Positions 28,268-39,806 of a stretch of 43,895 bases of DNA are shown here, in pieces. The notes beneath the pieces were generated by a model. That model saw nothing but the letters and a program-made list of their open reading frames with translations, made no database searches and was not told the origin of the DNA. Origin of the DNA: a virus; UHGV virus genome UHGV-0356621; one strand, given 5' to 3'. How positions within the stretch are numbered: the stretch's first letter is position 1; every line of letters begins with the position of its first letter. Made by a program: the position numbers and the translations under genes.

Positions 28268-28928
28268 GTTCACCGCCTTGCACCTTTACCAGCGTGAGGT
28301 TTCCGCAGAACACGGCGCCGGTGTCGATGTACATCTGGTTGGCATACTTCAGGGGCTGGCGCGCTGGGGTGTGGCCGAAGATAAACAGATCAGCACCGGC
28401 TATCGTCGATACAATGCCGTCCTGTGCGTCGCTAACCCTCTCACGATTCCAGATGACCATATCTTTCGGGATGGGCTTATCGAACGCATATTCGTTATGC
28501 GGGTAGTCAGCGTGGCAGATAACGATTTTACGCTCAGCGGTAACCAGCTCGATGACGAGTGGCAGCTCAGCTGCTTTGTGAACCAGAGCCTTAGCCAGCA
28601 CTTCTTTGTCATAGTCGAGATTGAAGAACCAGCCGCCACCATTTGCCAACCAGTGATTGACGTTTCCATACTCCGATAGCCCATCAATCATCATCTGCTC
28701 ATGGTTGCCACGAACAGCACGGAACCACGGCATAGTAATCAGATCCAGGCATTCGACGTTTTCCGCGCCGCGGTCAACAAGGTCTCCAACCGAAATCAGC
28801 AAATCGCACGCAGGGTCGAACGAAACTTTTTCGAGCTCATTCATCAGCAGGGTGTAGCACCCATGCAGATCGCCGACAACGAAGATATTGCGCCAGTCAG
28901 CGCCATTAATGCGTTGATACATGCTCAT
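28260..28928 (-). CDS. Ser/Thr protein phosphatase (lambda NinI-like)
   Basis: GDLHG, GDLVDRG and GNHE metallophosphatase motifs; ATG at 28928 after GAGGAGAAAA. Confidence 0.85.
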
Positions 28929-32066: not shown

Positions 32067-32756
32067 TCACACCATCCCGTTCGACTTGTTGCGGTTGTAC
32101 TTGGCCAGCAGCAGCTGGATCGGCGTCGGCCCTTGCTCGGCAGCTGGTGCGGCAATAGCCCGGCGTACCGGCGGCACTGGCTTACCCTCGGTGACGCGCC
32201 TTTCCCACATGTCCAGCAGATCGCCTGCCTCGCGTGCCAGTTCACCATGCGTTAACTGGCGCTCGGTGCTGCGGTGGCGCAATTCTACGCAAATGTGGTA
32301 CATGACCGGCTGCGACCATGGAAATTGCTCGCTGGAGATGAATTCGAACGAGCGGTTACGCCAGTCCCAGTATTCGGCGATCACCTGGTCAACGTTGACG
32401 CCCAGCGCGCCGCCGCTCTGCTTGCACCAGGCGACGAACTGGCCCGGCGACGGCAGGAATGGGCGCTCCTGGCGGCGGGCAATGCGCATGCCGGCATCGA
32501 CCTGAGCCATGGTGTGGATCCCGTTCTCCTGAAACGCCAGCAGCCACTGACGGCGGAATTCGTTCAGGTCTTCCTGGGTGCGGAAGTTCGCCATGCTGGC
32601 CGGGAACGCGGCGCGCAGCTCGTTGAACAGCTTGTTGAATACCTGCGCTACCTGCTCGACCGGTGCACGTTCCTGGTACTGCTCTGGCAGGTTATGGGCC
32701 ATGCGGCTCATCTGCTCGCGGTCGTGGTTACGCATCTGCTCTGCAAGAGATTTCAT
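32067..32756 (-). CDS. P: Replication protein P (helicase loader)
   Basis: Closely matches lambda P: MKSLAEQMRNHDREQMSRMAHNLPEQY... and RPFLPSPGQFVAWC identical to the lambda motif. Confidence 0.9.
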   Translation of the reverse strand: MKSLAEQMRNHDREQMSRMAHNLPEQYQERAPVEQVAQVFNKLFNELRAAFPASMANFRTQEDLNEFRRQWLLAFQENGIHTMAQVDAGMRIARRQERPFLPSPGQFVAWCKQSGGALGVNVDQVIAEYWDWRNRSFEFISSEQFPWSQPVMYHICVELRHRSTERQLTHGELAREAGDLLDMWERRVTEGKPVPPVRRAIAAPAAEQGPTPIQLLLAKYNRNKSNGMV

Positions 32757-33685
32757 CGCATCACCTCATAGGCCCAGTCAGTGTTGTTGAAGTCCAGATC
32801 CGGCTTGCCAGATTCTTCGCCTGTCTGCTGCTTGTTGCGTTTGATATCGAGCTGAGTCCACTTGTCGCGCAGCGTTGCCGGACATAGAACATTTCCCTTC
32901 CAGAACTTGTCGTTACAGGCCCATTTGAACAGGGCAGCAATTTCGTAGTGGGTGCGATCGTCACGCTCGCGCATCAGGCGGATGTCGTTAGCCCACGCTG
33001 CATAGTTTGGTTTTTTGGCAGATGGTGAAATGCTTTGCACCATGGTGAACAGCCATTCCGCGCAGCGAAGGTCTTCAGAGTTACCCCACTTTGTGCCGCT
33101 CTGAATTGCCGCTTCAGGTTTCATGACAGGCGGTTTCTTTCCGGGCTTGTCAGAGGATTCGTCAGAATTCTCGGACGTAGAGTTATTTATATTCTTGTTA
33201 TTACCTTCTTGTTCATGATGTGCGGGGAATTGTGCGGCCTTATGTGCGGCATACCCATCTGAACCCGCGCCGTTACTGACTTCATCATGTGCGCCTGTAT
33301 GTGCGGCTTTATGTGCGGGTAAATCGTCCATTTTTTGAGCATATTCGACGTAATTTGTGATGGTGATCACCCTGCCTTTTCGTTTCTCTCCCTCGATGGA
33401 AATCATCCCTTCGCGGACGAAAACTGACAGCATTCTCTCCACAGCGTCGCGGCTTGTCGGGTTGCCCTGACGGTCACACAACTGAAGGCCAAGATCTGCA
33501 GCAGTGACGACCAGTTGACCGGGTTGCAGAGGCCATTGCTTGCCCTTGAAGAATGCCGTGTATGGCTGTCTGGCTGCGTCAATGAGCAGGTTCTCCCACA
33601 GCGCGCGCAGGAACACATCCTTAGCCCAGGACTTCTTCTTGATGCTCCGGTACAACGGGACGTAACCAGACTTCTGGTTCTCCAT
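32753..33685 (-). CDS. O: Replication initiator O-like protein containing the iteron origin
   Basis: Directly upstream of P, with iteron repeats inside the coding sequence as in lambda O; ATG at 33685 with AAGGAG RBS (track start 33742 is GTG). Confidence 0.65.
   Translation of the reverse strand: MENQKSGYVPLYRSIKKKSWAKDVFLRALWENLLIDAARQPYTAFFKGKQWPLQPGQLVVTAADLGLQLCDRQGNPTSRDAVERMLSVFVREGMISIEGEKRKGRVITITNYVEYAQKMDDLPAHKAAHTGAHDEVSNGAGSDGYAAHKAAQFPAHHEQEGNNKNINNSTSENSDESSDKPGKKPPVMKPEAAIQSGTKWGNSEDLRCAEWLFTMVQSISPSAKKPNYAAWANDIRLMRERDDRTHYEIAALFKWACNDKFWKGNVLCPATLRDKWTQLDIKRNKQQTGEESGKPDLDFNNTDWAYEVMR
33181..33320. repeat. Candidate origin of replication: about six TGTGCGG iterons plus adjacent AT-rich stretch inside the O-like gene
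   Basis: ATGTGCGG-like motif recurs at roughly 10-20 bp spacing between 33214 and 33320; AT-rich GAGTTATTTATATTCTTGTTATTACC at 33180-33206. Confidence 0.65.
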
Positions 33686-33867: not shown

Positions 33868-34089
33868 TCATGCTTCAAAATCTCCCTTCTCTCCATCCCT
33901 GTTCGAAATCAGGATGGCAAGCAGCAGCGACATGTTCGGTACCAGGTTTTCCCGCCACCGGCTGACTGTGGATTTGTTGATGCCAGCTACTTCGGCTATC
34001 CGGGCGGTACCCAGATCAGCGATTTGCCGCTGCACCCAGCTCTCAATTCGTCGTGCCTCCGCTTTGTTGCGTGTCGTTAAGGTCTCCAT
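33868..34089 (-). CDS. cII: CII-like transcriptional activator
   Basis: NKAEARRIESWVQRQIADLGTARIAEVAGINKSTVSRWRENLVPNMSLLLAIL aligns with lambda CII (NEALRIESALLNKIAMLGTEKTAEAVGVDKSQISRWKRDWIPKFSMLLAVL). Confidence 0.8.
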   Translation of the reverse strand: METLTTRNKAEARRIESWVQRQIADLGTARIAEVAGINKSTVSRWRENLVPNMSLLLAILISNRDGEKGDFEA

Positions 34090-34116: not shown

Positions 34117-34350
34117 TTATGCCGCGGTATTTCGCGGCGAGGCAAAAACCAGGCTCTCTTTGAGCACCGGATCCTGGCGGTGAAATTTTTTTGTGGCATC
34201 TTCGATAGCCGATGCCATTTCTGGTGATGCGCGACGATTTCCGTAAGCGATCTGGTCCAGATAACCTGGCGTTGTGTTTGCCAGTTTTGCGAGCTGCGCC
34301 CATTCGTCTGTAGTGGCGCCCTTACGCCAGCGATGCAGTTCAGTACTCAT
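34117..34350 (-). CDS. cro: Cro-like repressor (YdaS/Cro-type HTH)
   Basis: 77-aa HTH protein divergent from cI across an operator region and followed by cII. Confidence 0.6.
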   Translation of the reverse strand: MSTELHRWRKGATTDEWAQLAKLANTTPGYLDQIAYGNRRASPEMASAIEDATKKFHRQDPVLKESLVFASPRNTAA

Positions 34351-34382
34351 TGGTGTCTCCGGTTGAGTCGTTTGATTTGGAG

Positions 34383-34448
34383 TTTAGCGTTATGCTAAAT
34401 ACTACGCAAGCAACATTTAGCAATTTGCACATTTATCATTTTGCTAAA
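34383..34448. promoter_or_regulatory. OR-like operator cluster with divergent promoters, 17-bp sites TTTAGC-N5-GCTAAA
   Basis: Perfect site 34383-34399 TTTAGCGTTATGCTAAA; second site 34432-34448 TTTATCATTTTGCTAAA; weaker half-site at 34416-34432. Confidence 0.6.
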
Positions 34449-34466
34449 AGCAGTAACAATGCAGGG

Positions 34467-35144
34467 ATGGAAAATAAAGAAATCAGAAAAGCCAACCTGG
34501 AAGCGCTGTATGAGAAGCGCCAGCACGAGTCTGGAATGACAAAGGCGCAGTTCGCCGAGCTCATCGAGACAAGTCCGGCTGCGCTTAGCCAGCTGCTGGG
34601 ACCAAACCCTCATCGCAATATCGGCGATAAGATGGCTCGCAAAATTGAAAGTGCGCTTGATCTGCCTTTTGGTTGGATGGATGTTTTACACACCAGTGAA
34701 GAACCTTCGAACGTTGCATTTCGAGGACTGAACGAGACAAAAGGAAGTTATCCTGTAATCAGCTGGGTAAGCGCGGGGCAATGGATGGAAGCTGTAGAAC
34801 CTTATCACCGAAGAGCGATAGATCGCTGGTATGACACGACTGTTGACTGCTCAGAAGATTCATTCTGGCTGGACGTTAAAGGGGATTCTATGACCTCCCC
34901 GGCTGGACTGAGCATACCCGAGGGAGCAGCGATACTTGTTGATCCTGAAGTCGAGCCGCGCAACGGAAAGCTGGTTGTCGCGAAGCTAGAAGGCGATAAC
35001 GAAGCGACCTTTAAGAAGCTTGTAATCGATGCCGGCAGACGCTTCCTAAAGCCCCTTAACCCCGCATATCCAATGCTAGAAATTAATGGAAACTGCAAAA
35101 TCATCGGCGTTGTGGTTGATGCCAAAATACTAAACATCCCATAA
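34467..35144 (+). CDS. cI: CI repressor (N-terminal HTH, C-terminal S24 LexA-like autopeptidase domain)
   Basis: HTH segment MTKAQFAELIETSPAALSQL; C-terminal GDSMTSP (Ser nucleophile) and later Lys; ATG at 34467. Confidence 0.85.
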   Translation: MENKEIRKANLEALYEKRQHESGMTKAQFAELIETSPAALSQLLGPNPHRNIGDKMARKIESALDLPFGWMDVLHTSEEPSNVAFRGLNETKGSYPVISWVSAGQWMEAVEPYHRRAIDRWYDTTVDCSEDSFWLDVKGDSMTSPAGLSIPEGAAILVDPEVEPRNGKLVVAKLEGDNEATFKKLVIDAGRRFLKPLNPAYPMLEINGNCKIIGVVVDAKILNIP

Positions 35145-38960: not shown

Positions 38961-39806
38961 ATGACAAACGAATTAACAATCACCGCGACTTCGCTTCAGG
39001 AAAAAGGTATCGATGTCGCTACCTGGAGCGCGCTGAAGAACAGTATCTACCCTGGTGCCAAAGACGAATCGGTAATGATGGCGCTCGATTACTGCCGTGC
39101 CCGCCAGTTGGATCCACTGCTGAAGCCCGTTCACCTCGTGCCGATGAGCGTCAAAGACTCAAGAACGGGTAAAAGCGAATGGCGCGACGTGGTCATGCCG
39201 GGCATCGGGCTTTACCGCATTCAGGCGGACCGCTCCGGCGATTATGCCGGGGCCCGCGAACCAGAGTTCGGTCCAGACGTAACTCAGACGCTTACTGGTG
39301 TAGAGGTGACTTTCCCTCAGTGGTGCAAATACACCGTCTACAAGCGCATGCCCAGCGGGGAGATCGTCGAGTTCAGCGCCAAAGAATATTGGATTGAAAA
39401 CTACGCCACCGGCGGCCGCGACACCACGGCGCCGAACGCGATGTGGAAAAAGCGCCCATACGGACAGCTGGCGAAATGCGCAGAAGCCCAGGCGTTGCGT
39501 AAGGCATGGCCTGAGATTGGACAGCAGCCTACCGCCGAAGAAATGGAAGGCAAATCACTGGACGTTGATATCCGTGACGTCACGCCGCGCAGCACCACAG
39601 AAGCGCTTCCACCAGCAGCAAGCGAAGAAACGCTTCAGGCCATCACCGATCTCTTAACATCGCTGAATAAAGACTGGGAGCAAGACTTCCTCCCAGTGTG
39701 CAGCGACATCTTCAAACGACCAATTCTTGAGGCGTCAGACCTCACTGAAGAAGAGGCACAGAAAGGGTTCAACTTCCTTCAGAAAAAAGCTAAGGCGGCA
39801 GCATGA
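38961..39806 (+). CDS. recT: RecT-family single-strand annealing recombinase
   Basis: ALDYCRARQLDPLLKPVHLVP...KDSRTG...IGLYRIQADRSGDYAG resembles Rac RecT; ATG at 38961 with GAGGGGA RBS. Confidence 0.8.
   Translation: MTNELTITATSLQEKGIDVATWSALKNSIYPGAKDESVMMALDYCRARQLDPLLKPVHLVPMSVKDSRTGKSEWRDVVMPGIGLYRIQADRSGDYAGAREPEFGPDVTQTLTGVEVTFPQWCKYTVYKRMPSGEIVEFSAKEYWIENYATGGRDTTAPNAMWKKRPYGQLAKCAEAQALRKAWPEIGQQPTAEEMEGKSLDVDIRDVTPRSTTEALPPAASEETLQAITDLLTSLNKDWEQDFLPVCSDIFKRPILEASDLTEEEAQKGFNFLQKKAKAAA

What the first reader, a model, noticed from the sequence alone, without database searches (positions are those of the whole stretch)
33181..33320. Iteron-type origin embedded in the O-like gene
Six or so TGTGCGG repeats next to an AT-rich tract lie inside the replication initiator gene, the same arrangement as ori-lambda. 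In the protein they produce a repetitive AHKAA/AHTGAH segment.
Basis: partly seen in the sequence, partly recalled or inferred. Interest (0 to 1): 0.4.

Follow-up and report, generated by a model that had tools for sequence, protein, structure and literature searches.

The report
Replication origin inside phage initiator gene
The short repeats are almost certainly the binding sites of a lambda-like prophage's replication origin, written into the gene of the protein that binds them: an expected feature, although a conserved element at its centre has no known role.

Summary
On the coding (minus) strand, six (C/G)CGCACA cores form two triplets at exact 12-bp spacing (33287-33319 and 33218-33250). 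The triplets are 45 bp apart, and a 37-bp AT-rich tract (33178-33214) follows them. All of this lies in the linker-coding part of a Phage_rep_O gene, which is followed by a lambda-P gene.

Comparison with more than 200 related loci shows that selection acts on the DNA, not the peptide. The cores stay identical where synonymous sites are near saturation. The encoded amino acids vary. The spacing 12,12,45,12,12 holds in nine classes whose core sequence changes along with the predicted recognition helix: SRD goes with CGCACA and SRH with CGCGCA, with almost no exceptions.

The units are short direct repeats, unlike lambda's four 18-bp sites, in which no internal dyad was found here. The layout matches the region annotated as a putative origin in phage Sf6. 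I class it as a new member of a known kind.

One part is unexplained. A 15-bp element (consensus CCAGTAATGGCGCGG; window 33265-33279) sits between the triplets and is orientation-independent. The same element centres repeat arrays beside two other initiator families.

The parts
32753..33685 (-). O-like replication initiator gene (310 aa; ATG at 33685 preceded by AAGGAG)
   Evidence: ORF listing. Pfam Phage_rep_O on aa 1-112, E 1.4e-11. The C-terminal 139 aa are 65% identical to the lambda O C-terminal domain. The start is conserved in homologues.
33320..33685 (-). Coding region of the N-terminal winged-helix domain (aa 1-122); the predicted recognition helix is aa 79-91 (RDAVERMLSVFVR) and the wing is aa 95-109
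   Evidence: AlphaFold2 model, pLDDT 85. Foldseek gives only weak winged-helix matches, best E 0.0097. Weak profile matches to the Fur and AdcR recognition helices.
33287..33319 (-). Iteron triplet 1: CCCGCACAT AAAG CCGCACAT ACAG GCGCACAT, 12-bp register
   Evidence: The positions are conserved in all related loci.
33265..33279 (-). Central conserved element TCAGTAACGGCGCGG (family consensus CCAGTAATGGCGCGG), in the slot +14 to +28 after the start of the third core
   Evidence: Inverted in the same slot in L237/L238. Present in the annotated Sf6 rep_origin. Also found in arrays beside other initiator families.
33218..33250 (-). Iteron triplet 2: GCCGCACAT AAGG CCGCACAA TTCC CCGCACAT; its first core starts 45 bp after the start of the last core of triplet 1
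33178..33214 (-). AT-rich tract GAACAAGAAGGTAATAACAAGAATATAAATAACTCTA, the presumed DNA-unwinding element
   Evidence: GC 25%; the least stable stretch in 32-34 kb and in the top 0.13% of the window. A low-GC tract follows the last repeat in every class.
33149..33177 (-). Stretch homologous to lambda DNA just right of its AT-rich tract (CGTCCGAGAATTCTGACGAATCCTCTGAC); DNA homology to lambda O begins here, and this is the junction to the C-terminal module
   Evidence: Alignment with lambda. Coordinates. C-terminal modules swap just after the AT tract in homologues.
32067..32756 (-). lambda-P family gene (presumed DnaB helicase loader), overlapping the stop codon of O
   Evidence: Pfam Phage_lambda_P, E 1.9e-49.

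Best explanation
This is the replication origin of a lambdoid prophage, probably from Enterobacter, embedded in its own initiator gene.

Shown here:
- Six 12-bp units with the core (C/G)CGCACA(T/A) lie in two triplets 45 bp apart. A conserved 15-bp element sits between them and an AT-rich tract follows.
- The array is under DNA-level purifying selection.
- The core sequence co-varies with the predicted recognition helix of the protein encoded by the same gene.

Inferred:
- Monomers, or head-to-tail oligomers, of the N-terminal winged-helix domain of the O-like protein bind the six direct repeats, with helix residues R79/D80 reading the core.
- The resulting nucleoprotein complex destabilises the adjacent AT-rich tract.
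- The lambda-like C-terminal domain recruits the complex of P protein and host DnaB helicase, and DnaB is loaded as in lambda.
- The repeats and the AT tract also encode the flexible linker between the two protein domains.

The role of the central element is not known.
For: Family and context:
- Phage_rep_O N-terminal domain followed by a lambda-P gene, with cII, cro and cI upstream.
- The position and order of parts match ori-lambda, and DNA homology to lambda starts exactly at the right edge of the AT tract.

DNA-level selection:
- In 84 units from 13 non-redundant loci, the Ala codon in the core is GCA 83 times. Elsewhere in the same genes GCA accounts for 60 of 280 Ala codons.
- The codon before it is NCC or NGC, encoding P, A, T, S, G and others, and 40 different tetrapeptides are encoded.
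- Four-fold synonymous sites in the N-terminal domain are only 39-50% identical to the window in the six most distant of eight loci compared. The 36 core positions are 36/36 identical in seven of the eight.

Geometry:
- The spacing 12,12,(12),45,12,12,(12) holds in 63 distinct IMG/VR origin regions and in genomes of Enterobacter, Klebsiella, Escherichia, Yersinia, Xenorhabdus, Proteus, Brenneria and others.
- Nine specificity classes share 12,12,45,12,12. Sf6 has 11,11,44,11,11, which is out of codon phase.

Covariation:
- Helix 'SRD': 709 CGCACA against 4 CGCGCA (119 loci, 49 distinct N-terminal domains).
- Helix 'SRH': 0 against 251 (58 loci, 34 distinct domains).
- Other helix variants carry CGATRA, GTCGAA/GACGAG, CCGGAG, GGTAACA or TGTCCA cores.
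- The model places these residues at the N-terminus of helix 3 of a winged helix.

Other support:
- The C-terminal module is swapped just after the AT tract; for example, L004 and CUS-3 have a different C-terminal domain followed by a DnaB-type helicase gene.
- The same layout is annotated as a putative rep_origin in the Sf6 record. Short repeats in gene 18 of phages P22 and L are read as origins in PMC8022706.
Against: - There is no experimental evidence for binding or origin activity for this class. All support is comparative.
- The SRD/SRH covariation may reflect a single evolutionary event, because the two groups may each be one clade.
- The units are short direct repeats at 12 bp, unlike lambda's 18-bp iterons, and no internal dyad was found in them. 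The binding mode therefore cannot be carried over from lambda.
- No solved structure is close; the best Foldseek E-value is 0.0097.
- The AT tract and the stretch after it may also be conserved as a recombination joint between protein modules.
Confidence: 0.85

Rival explanations
1. The repeats bind the O-like protein, but their main job is regulation (autoregulation of O/P expression, a roadblock to transcription, or copy-number control by pairing of arrays), and the true origin lies elsewhere.
For: The covariation shows only that the protein and the repeats are matched, not what binding achieves. Iterons in plasmids also serve copy control (established knowledge; reviews listed).
Against: There is no second array of phased repeats anywhere in the window. 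The AT-rich tract directly adjoins the array in every class. The position and the flanking homology match ori-lambda. No promoter-like site is found in or near the array.
Confidence: 0.07
2. The repeats exist for the protein: a His/Ala-rich repetitive linker (flexible, or metal-binding), and the DNA repeat is only its shadow.
For: The segment does encode a repetitive low-complexity peptide, PAH/AAH..., between two folded domains.
Against: The amino acids vary (40 tetrapeptides; P, A, T, S or G before Ala; H or Q after) while the nucleotides are fixed, including third codon positions (GCA 83 of 84). The cores are identical where synonymous sites are near saturation. Other classes encode unrelated peptides such as SPDEPCDKPSD, GVEGSDEPPVE, EVTKQVTN and SVQGSVQPFVQ with the same 12,12,45,12,12 geometry. 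The Sf6 units have an 11-bp period, which is out of codon phase.
Confidence: 0.03
3. The conserved DNA is a recombination joint or hotspot that lets N- and C-terminal modules of initiator genes be exchanged, and it has no role in initiation.
For: C-terminal modules do swap immediately after the AT tract. Conserved 'boundary sequences' are annotated in lambdoid genomes, for example bsq5 in Sf6.
Against: This would not explain six phased copies of a class-specific core, their covariation with the recognition helix, or the fixed 45-bp gap. It could contribute to conservation of the AT tract and the stretch after it.
Confidence: 0.03

Closest known systems
ori-lambda (four iterons, AT-rich region and right arm inside gene O of phage lambda)
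   Same: - It lies inside the initiator gene at the junction between the N-terminal DNA-binding domain and the C-terminal P-binding domain.
- The order along the gene is the same: repeats, AT-rich tract, then the stretch around lambda's EcoRI site.
- The initiator belongs to the same Pfam family and is followed by a P-family gene.
- The C-terminal domain is 65% identical to lambda's, and the DNA just right of the AT tract is homologous.
   Different: - Lambda has four adjacent 18-bp iterons (annotated at 39034-39118). From established knowledge, each has internal dyad symmetry and is bound by an O dimer.
- Here there are six 12-bp direct-repeat units, in which no dyad was found, arranged in two triplets 45 bp apart around a conserved central element.
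- Lambda O has no match to that element (best 5 mismatches).
- The N-terminal domains cannot be aligned by BLASTP.
Putative origin annotated in Shigella phage Sf6 gene 43 (AF547987 rep_origin 28385..28480; 'similar to phage HK620')
   Same: - Two triplets of short direct repeats.
- The same central CCAGTAATGGCGCGG, matching 15 of 15.
- An AT-rich tract directly after the second triplet.
- All of it lies inside an O-type initiator gene.
   Different: - The core is TTGTCCAACG rather than CCGCACA.
- The period is 11 bp and the gap 44 bp, rather than 12 and 45.
- The N-terminal domain is only about 23% identical.
- The Sf6 origin is itself only a prediction.
Phage L gene 18 repeats (six imprecise 11-bp TGTCCAACGGA) and P22 gene 18 repeats (four of about 20 bp), read as origins in PMC8022706
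   Same: Class-specific repeats inside the initiator gene of lambdoid or P22-like phages are interpreted as the origin, with specificity differing between phages.
   Different: The core sequences differ. I could not retrieve phage L itself with the searches run, so the link to L rests on the paper's description.
TubR-tubC plasmid partition complex (winged-helix protein coating 12-bp direct repeats arranged in two blocks); recalled from memory, so a lead only
   Same: A winged-helix protein paired with arrays of 12-bp direct repeats in two clusters. TubR appears among the weak fold matches (3m9a and 3m8e, E about 0.04).
   Different: TubR-tubC is a partition system, not an origin. The fold match is weak and generic, and there is no sequence relationship. 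It is offered only as an analogy for how such arrays might be coated.

Membership tests
Lambdoid-phage origin embedded in the initiator gene (ori-lambda kind) | The initiator belongs to the lambda O family and is followed by a helicase loader (P) or a helicase gene | tested here: met
   Phage_rep_O, 45.2 bits against a cut-off of 28.7. Phage_lambda_P, E 1.9e-49.
Lambdoid-phage origin embedded in the initiator gene (ori-lambda kind) | The repeat array lies within the initiator's coding sequence, between the N- and C-terminal domains | tested here: met
   Gene nt 367-468, after the folded domain (aa 1-121) and before the lambda-like C-terminal domain (aa 170 onward).
Lambdoid-phage origin embedded in the initiator gene (ori-lambda kind) | An AT-rich, easily melted tract lies directly downstream of the repeats | tested here: met
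   33178-33214, 25% GC, top 0.13% least stable in the window. Present in all classes.
Lambdoid-phage origin embedded in the initiator gene (ori-lambda kind) | The repeats are the binding sites of the initiator's N-terminal domain | not testable with these tools
   Support is indirect only: the core covaries with the predicted recognition helix (RD: 709 CGCACA against 4 CGCGCA; RH: 0 against 251; other classes).
Lambdoid-phage origin embedded in the initiator gene (ori-lambda kind) | Lambda-type iteron anatomy: about 18-19-bp units with internal dyad symmetry, four adjacent copies | tested here: not met
   The units are 12-bp direct repeats in two triplets, all in one orientation, and no dyad was found.
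Lambdoid-phage origin embedded in the initiator gene (ori-lambda kind) | The fragment supports initiator-dependent replication | not testable with these tools
   This needs a plasmid replication assay or marker-frequency analysis.
Sf6/HK620-type putative origin (two triplets of short direct repeats around a central element) | Two triplets of 11-12-bp direct repeats separated by a fixed gap of 44-45 bp | tested here: met
   Window 12,12,45,12,12; Sf6 11,11,44,11,11.
Sf6/HK620-type putative origin (two triplets of short direct repeats around a central element) | Central CCAGTAATGGCGCGG-like element between the triplets | tested here: met
   The window has TCAGTAACGGCGCGG, 2 mismatches. Shuffled regions give 4-7 mismatches. 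Sf6 matches 15 of 15.
Plasmid-type iteron origin (RepA/pi kind: 17-22-bp iterons, DnaA box and AT-rich region) | A DnaA box adjoins the iterons | tested here: not met
   No TTATCCACA match with up to 1 mismatch between 31531 and 35861.

The most novel reading that the evidence does not exclude
The 15-bp element at the centre of the array (consensus CCAGTAATGGCGCGG, extended about 8 bp to ...S-TT-Y-N-AG) may be an origin 'core' that does not depend on which initiator is used. It could be the site of a host factor, or a priming or helicase-loading signal, shared by enterobacterial phage and satellite origins.

- It keeps the same slot in O-type origins whose initiators are only 23-47% identical.
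- In two classes it occurs inverted relative to the gene; in L237/L238 it is in the same slot (L248 slot not measured).
- It also centres unrelated repeat arrays next to D5-type SF3 helicase genes and AAA_25 helicase genes.

I found no description of it in the literature I could search.
Probability: 0.35. Interest if true: 0.65.

Novelty: new member of a known kind. Interest (0 to 1): 0.4.

Why it matters
In itself this is an expected feature. It marks the replication origin of a widespread group of enterobacterial prophages, which includes phage CUS-3, a set of Stx2a-converting phages, and Klebsiella and Yersinia phages. None of the database records I inspected for this class annotates an origin.

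The comparative picture is more useful than the single locus:
- The family gives a natural series of matched pairs of recognition helix and repeat core on one fixed scaffold. The cleanest pair is Asp/His at residue 80 against A/G at the fourth base of the CGCACA core. This could be used to study how initiator specificity evolves, or to design origins that do not cross-react.
- The central element is shared across initiator families. If it is a binding or loading site, it points to an undescribed common step in initiation.

Tried and rejected
- DnaA boxes: none at the array.
- Sigma-70 promoter-like sites: none between 32000 and 34400. The one terminator-like hit inside the array is simply two adjacent repeat units pairing, and hits were fewer than in shuffles.
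- Lambda 'ice' site: the sequence is unrelated to the central element.
- Lambda O: no copy of the central element.
- By eye only, with no tool: the central element does not fit the IHF, Fis, sigma-54, Tus/Ter or dif consensus sequences as I remember them.
- Solved structures: the profile search gave only weak winged-helix-type matches (best E 0.0044; Fur 0.17, AdcR 0.89). Foldseek gave no match with E of 0.001 or better. The recognition-helix assignment therefore rests on the model and on generic winged-helix topology.
- Literature: text searches for CCGCACA with 'iteron', for CUS-3 with 'iterons', and for pieces of the central element found nothing relevant.
- Phage L: I tried to tie the TGTCCA class (L237) to phage L by DNA and protein search. 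Phage L was not retrieved, but Sf6 was.
- The search for homologous proteins returned mostly short or partial proteins. I used them only as an alignment for the structure model.

Full report
WHAT IS THERE. The finding lies in a lambdoid immunity and replication region. A cI-like repressor gene sits at 34350-35144 (+). On the minus strand come cro-like (34117-34350), cII (33868-34089), an O-like gene (32753-33685) and a lambda-P family gene (32067-32756). The O-like gene starts at the ATG at 33685, which follows an AAGGAG Shine-Dalgarno sequence, and homologues share this start.

Read on the coding strand, the region is: CC-CGCACA-TAAAGC-CGCACA-TACAGG-CGCACA-TGATGAAG-TCAGTAACGGCGCGG-GTTCAGATGGGTATGC-CGCACA-TAAGGC-CGCACA-ATTCCC-CGCACA-TCAT-GAACAAGAAGGTAATAACAAGAATATAAATAACTCTA. 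So six cores form two triplets at exact 12-bp spacing. The two triplets are 45 bp apart from core start to core start. A 37-bp tract with 25% GC follows.

IS IT MORE THAN CHANCE? Yes. The heptamer TGTGCGG occurs 8 times in the window on both strands, which equals the shuffle expectation of 7.9, but five copies lie within 100 bp. All four 12-bp-phased pairs in the window are here. The AT tract is the least stable stretch between 32 and 34 kb and is in the top 0.13% of the whole window.

THE PROTEIN. Residues 1-112 match Pfam Phage_rep_O, at 45 bits against a cut-off of 28.7. An AlphaFold2 model of residues 1-122 (pLDDT 85) shows a winged-helix layout. Helix 3 spans residues 79-91 and a beta-hairpin wing spans 95-109. 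Structure searches return only weak, generic winged-helix matches such as MarR, ArsR/HlyU, CodY, RosR and TubR, with a best E-value of 0.0097. A profile search of PDB sequences gives weak matches over the Fur and AdcR recognition helices. The C-terminal 139 residues are 65% identical to the C-terminal domain of lambda O. The repeats and the AT tract encode the low-complexity linker between the two domains.

COMPARISON WITH LAMBDA. When the two genes are aligned, DNA homology begins exactly at the right edge of the AT tract, at CGTCnGAGAATTCTGnCGAATCCTCTGAC, the stretch around lambda's EcoRI site. It then runs to the end of the gene. The N-terminal domain and the repeats do not align. Lambda's annotated iterons lie at gene nt 349-433 and the window's cores at 369-467. 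Position and order of parts are therefore the same as in lambda. The specificity module, meaning the N-terminal domain plus its repeats, is different.

SELECTION ACTS ON THE DNA. I collected loci from phage records, E. coli genomes, one genome per species, and IMG/VR.
- In 84 units from 13 non-redundant loci, the Ala codon inside the core is GCA 83 times. GCA accounts for 60 of 280 Ala codons elsewhere in the same genes.
- The preceding codon is NCC or NGC and so encodes Pro, Ala, Thr, Ser, Gly and others. The following codon is CAT or CAA, encoding His or Gln. Forty different tetrapeptides are encoded.
- Four-fold synonymous sites of the N-terminal domain are only 39-50% identical to the window in the six most distant of eight loci compared. 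The 36 core positions are identical in seven of the eight.
- The unit positions were fixed by geometry, because every locus has them at the same gene coordinates. The count is therefore not circular.

THE GEOMETRY IS INVARIANT. Core starts at gene nt 369, 381, 393, (405), then +45, then +12, +12, (+12) recur in Enterobacter, Klebsiella, Escherichia, Yersinia, Xenorhabdus, Proteus, Brenneria, Trabulsiella and Superficieibacter loci. They also recur in 63 distinct IMG/VR origin regions. Copy number varies (3+3, 4+4, 4+5), which is typical of iterons. In one locus (L189) the block of one triplet plus spacer (69 bp in the window) appears three times.

THE CORE COVARIES WITH THE RECOGNITION HELIX.
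- Loci whose helix 3 begins S-R-D carry 709 CGCACA and 4 CGCGCA (119 loci, 49 distinct N-terminal domains).
- Loci with S-R-H carry 0 CGCACA and 251 CGCGCA (58 loci, 34 distinct domains).
- More distant relatives, 45-65% identical, keep the scaffold but carry other cores: S-P-Q or S-S-Q with (C/G)CGATRA; S-A-K with GTCGAA/GACGAG; S-V-Q-Q with CCGGAG/CCGAAG; S/T-x-K-Q with GGTAACA; and L-P-V-K with TGTCCA.
- All nine classes give 12,12,45,12,12, followed by a low-GC tract.
- Every unit in an array changed together with the protein. That is what is expected if the units are its binding sites.
- The caveat is that the SRD and SRH groups may each be a single clade, so the number of independent switches is unknown.

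MODULARITY. The C-terminal half is exchanged just after the AT tract. Some relatives carry the lambda-type domain followed by P. Others, such as CUS-3, the Stx2a phages and E. coli locus L004, carry an unrelated domain followed by a DnaB-type helicase gene.

WHAT IS ALREADY KNOWN.
- The Sf6 GenBank record annotates a putative rep_origin inside gene 43, described as a 'repeat region reminiscent of the phage lambda origin; similar to phage HK620'. Its sequence has the same design: three TTGTCCAACG units, then CCAGTAATGGCGCGG, then three more units, then an AT-rich tract. The period is 11 bp and the gap 44 bp.
- PMC8022706 reads four repeats of about 20 bp in P22 gene 18, and six 11-bp repeats in phage L gene 18, as the origins, each with its own specificity.
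- The kind is therefore known, but it is still only predicted. The CGCACA class seems not to be described. The CUS-3, Yersinia-phage and Klebsiella-phage records I inspected carry no origin annotation, and text searches found nothing.

MOST LIKELY MECHANISM. Shown here: the anatomy, the DNA-level constraint, the covariation, and the family membership of O and P. Inferred: the winged-helix domain binds the six direct repeats, probably head to tail, with the N-terminus of helix 3 (R79/D80) reading the core. The resulting complex strains and opens the adjacent AT tract. The lambda-like C-terminal domain then brings in the P-DnaB complex. The binding mode cannot be copied from lambda, whose iterons are 18-bp sites that, from established knowledge, have dyad symmetry and are bound by O dimers. 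From memory, TubR on tubC is a winged-helix protein that coats 12-bp direct repeats in two blocks. That is an analogy only.

AN UNEXPLAINED PART. The 15 bp between the triplets (window 33265-33279, TCAGTAACGGCGCGG) match the consensus CCAGTAATGGCGCGG.
- The consensus is kept with 0-3 mismatches in most O-type classes, while shuffled regions give 4-7.
- It is kept even in Sf6, whose N-terminal domain is about 23% identical.
- In the TGTCCA class (L237/L238) it occupies the same slot, +14 to +28 after the third core, but is inverted and encodes different residues. It is therefore a DNA element that works in either orientation.
- In 146 distinct slots from loci found by protein similarity, the best-kept positions are CCAG....GGCG.GG..TT, and these include third codon positions.
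- An exact-match scan of IMG/VR was capped at 120 stretches. It gave 91 distinct contexts, 48 of them flanked on both sides by repeated 7-mers. The reversed 15-mer, used as a control, gave 78 stretches and 64 contexts, none flanked by repeats.
- Some of the repeat-flanked contexts are not O genes. TGTCTACC repeats lie downstream of a D5_N/DUF5906/Pox_D5 helicase gene (L249, L252). GTGACA or CGCGCACTTT repeats lie downstream of AAA_25 helicase genes (L272, L265). Palindromic GTACCGAATCGGTAC repeats lie inside an O gene closer to lambda's (L248), where the element is inverted relative to the gene.
- Sequence outside about 24 bp is unrelated between contexts.
- I could not identify a binder. Text searches for the sequence returned only chance primer matches.

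VERDICT. The feature is a new specificity member of a known, though so far only predicted, kind of phage origin. The central element is the one part that may be new.

Noticed in passing
window 33265-33279, and loci L237, L241 (Sf6), L248, L249, L252, L265, L272, L273: A 15-bp element (consensus CCAGTAATGGCGCGG) sits at the centre of repeat arrays served by at least three initiator families: O-type winged helix, D5-type SF3 helicase and AAA_25 helicase. It works in either orientation. No binder is known and I found no mention of it in the literature.
   Followed up: partly
whole window (for example 2685, 6680, 16064, 23527, 36386): 9-mers within one mismatch of the DnaA box TTATCCACA occur 21 times, against 7.05 +/- 2.8 in shuffles (0 of 100 shuffles reach 21). 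None is at the origin. This may be oligonucleotide bias or something real.
   Followed up: no
L189 (IMG/VR 2872672955_000002), origin region: The block of one triplet plus spacer (69 bp in the window) appears three times instead of twice, and the ORF is shortened to 241 aa. This suggests arrays grow by duplicating the whole half-origin.
   Followed up: no
L241 (Sf6) 1035-1130, compared with all other classes: Sf6-type units have an 11-bp period and a 44-bp gap, not 12 and 45. The repeat is therefore out of codon phase, yet the central element and the AT tract are kept.
   Followed up: partly
Proteins P0005-P0056: Many database entries for this initiator are 'replication protein, partial' of 90-210 aa. 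The length is what a contig break in or near the repeat array would give, but I did not check where they end. This could hinder annotation of these origins.
   Followed up: no
L247, L250, L263 (IMG/VR): The exact 15-mer also lies between CCCCCTCCCCGG and GACCGCCCCCTGGGGG motifs, just upstream of a small-terminase-like gene (Terminase_4). There is no obvious iteron array, and the meaning is unknown.
   Followed up: no
L011 (Xenorhabdus ehlersii), gene nt about 430-470: The O-like gene is cut to 157 aa. It keeps the first triplet and part of the spacer but loses the second triplet and the AT tract. It is probably a decayed prophage origin.
   Followed up: no
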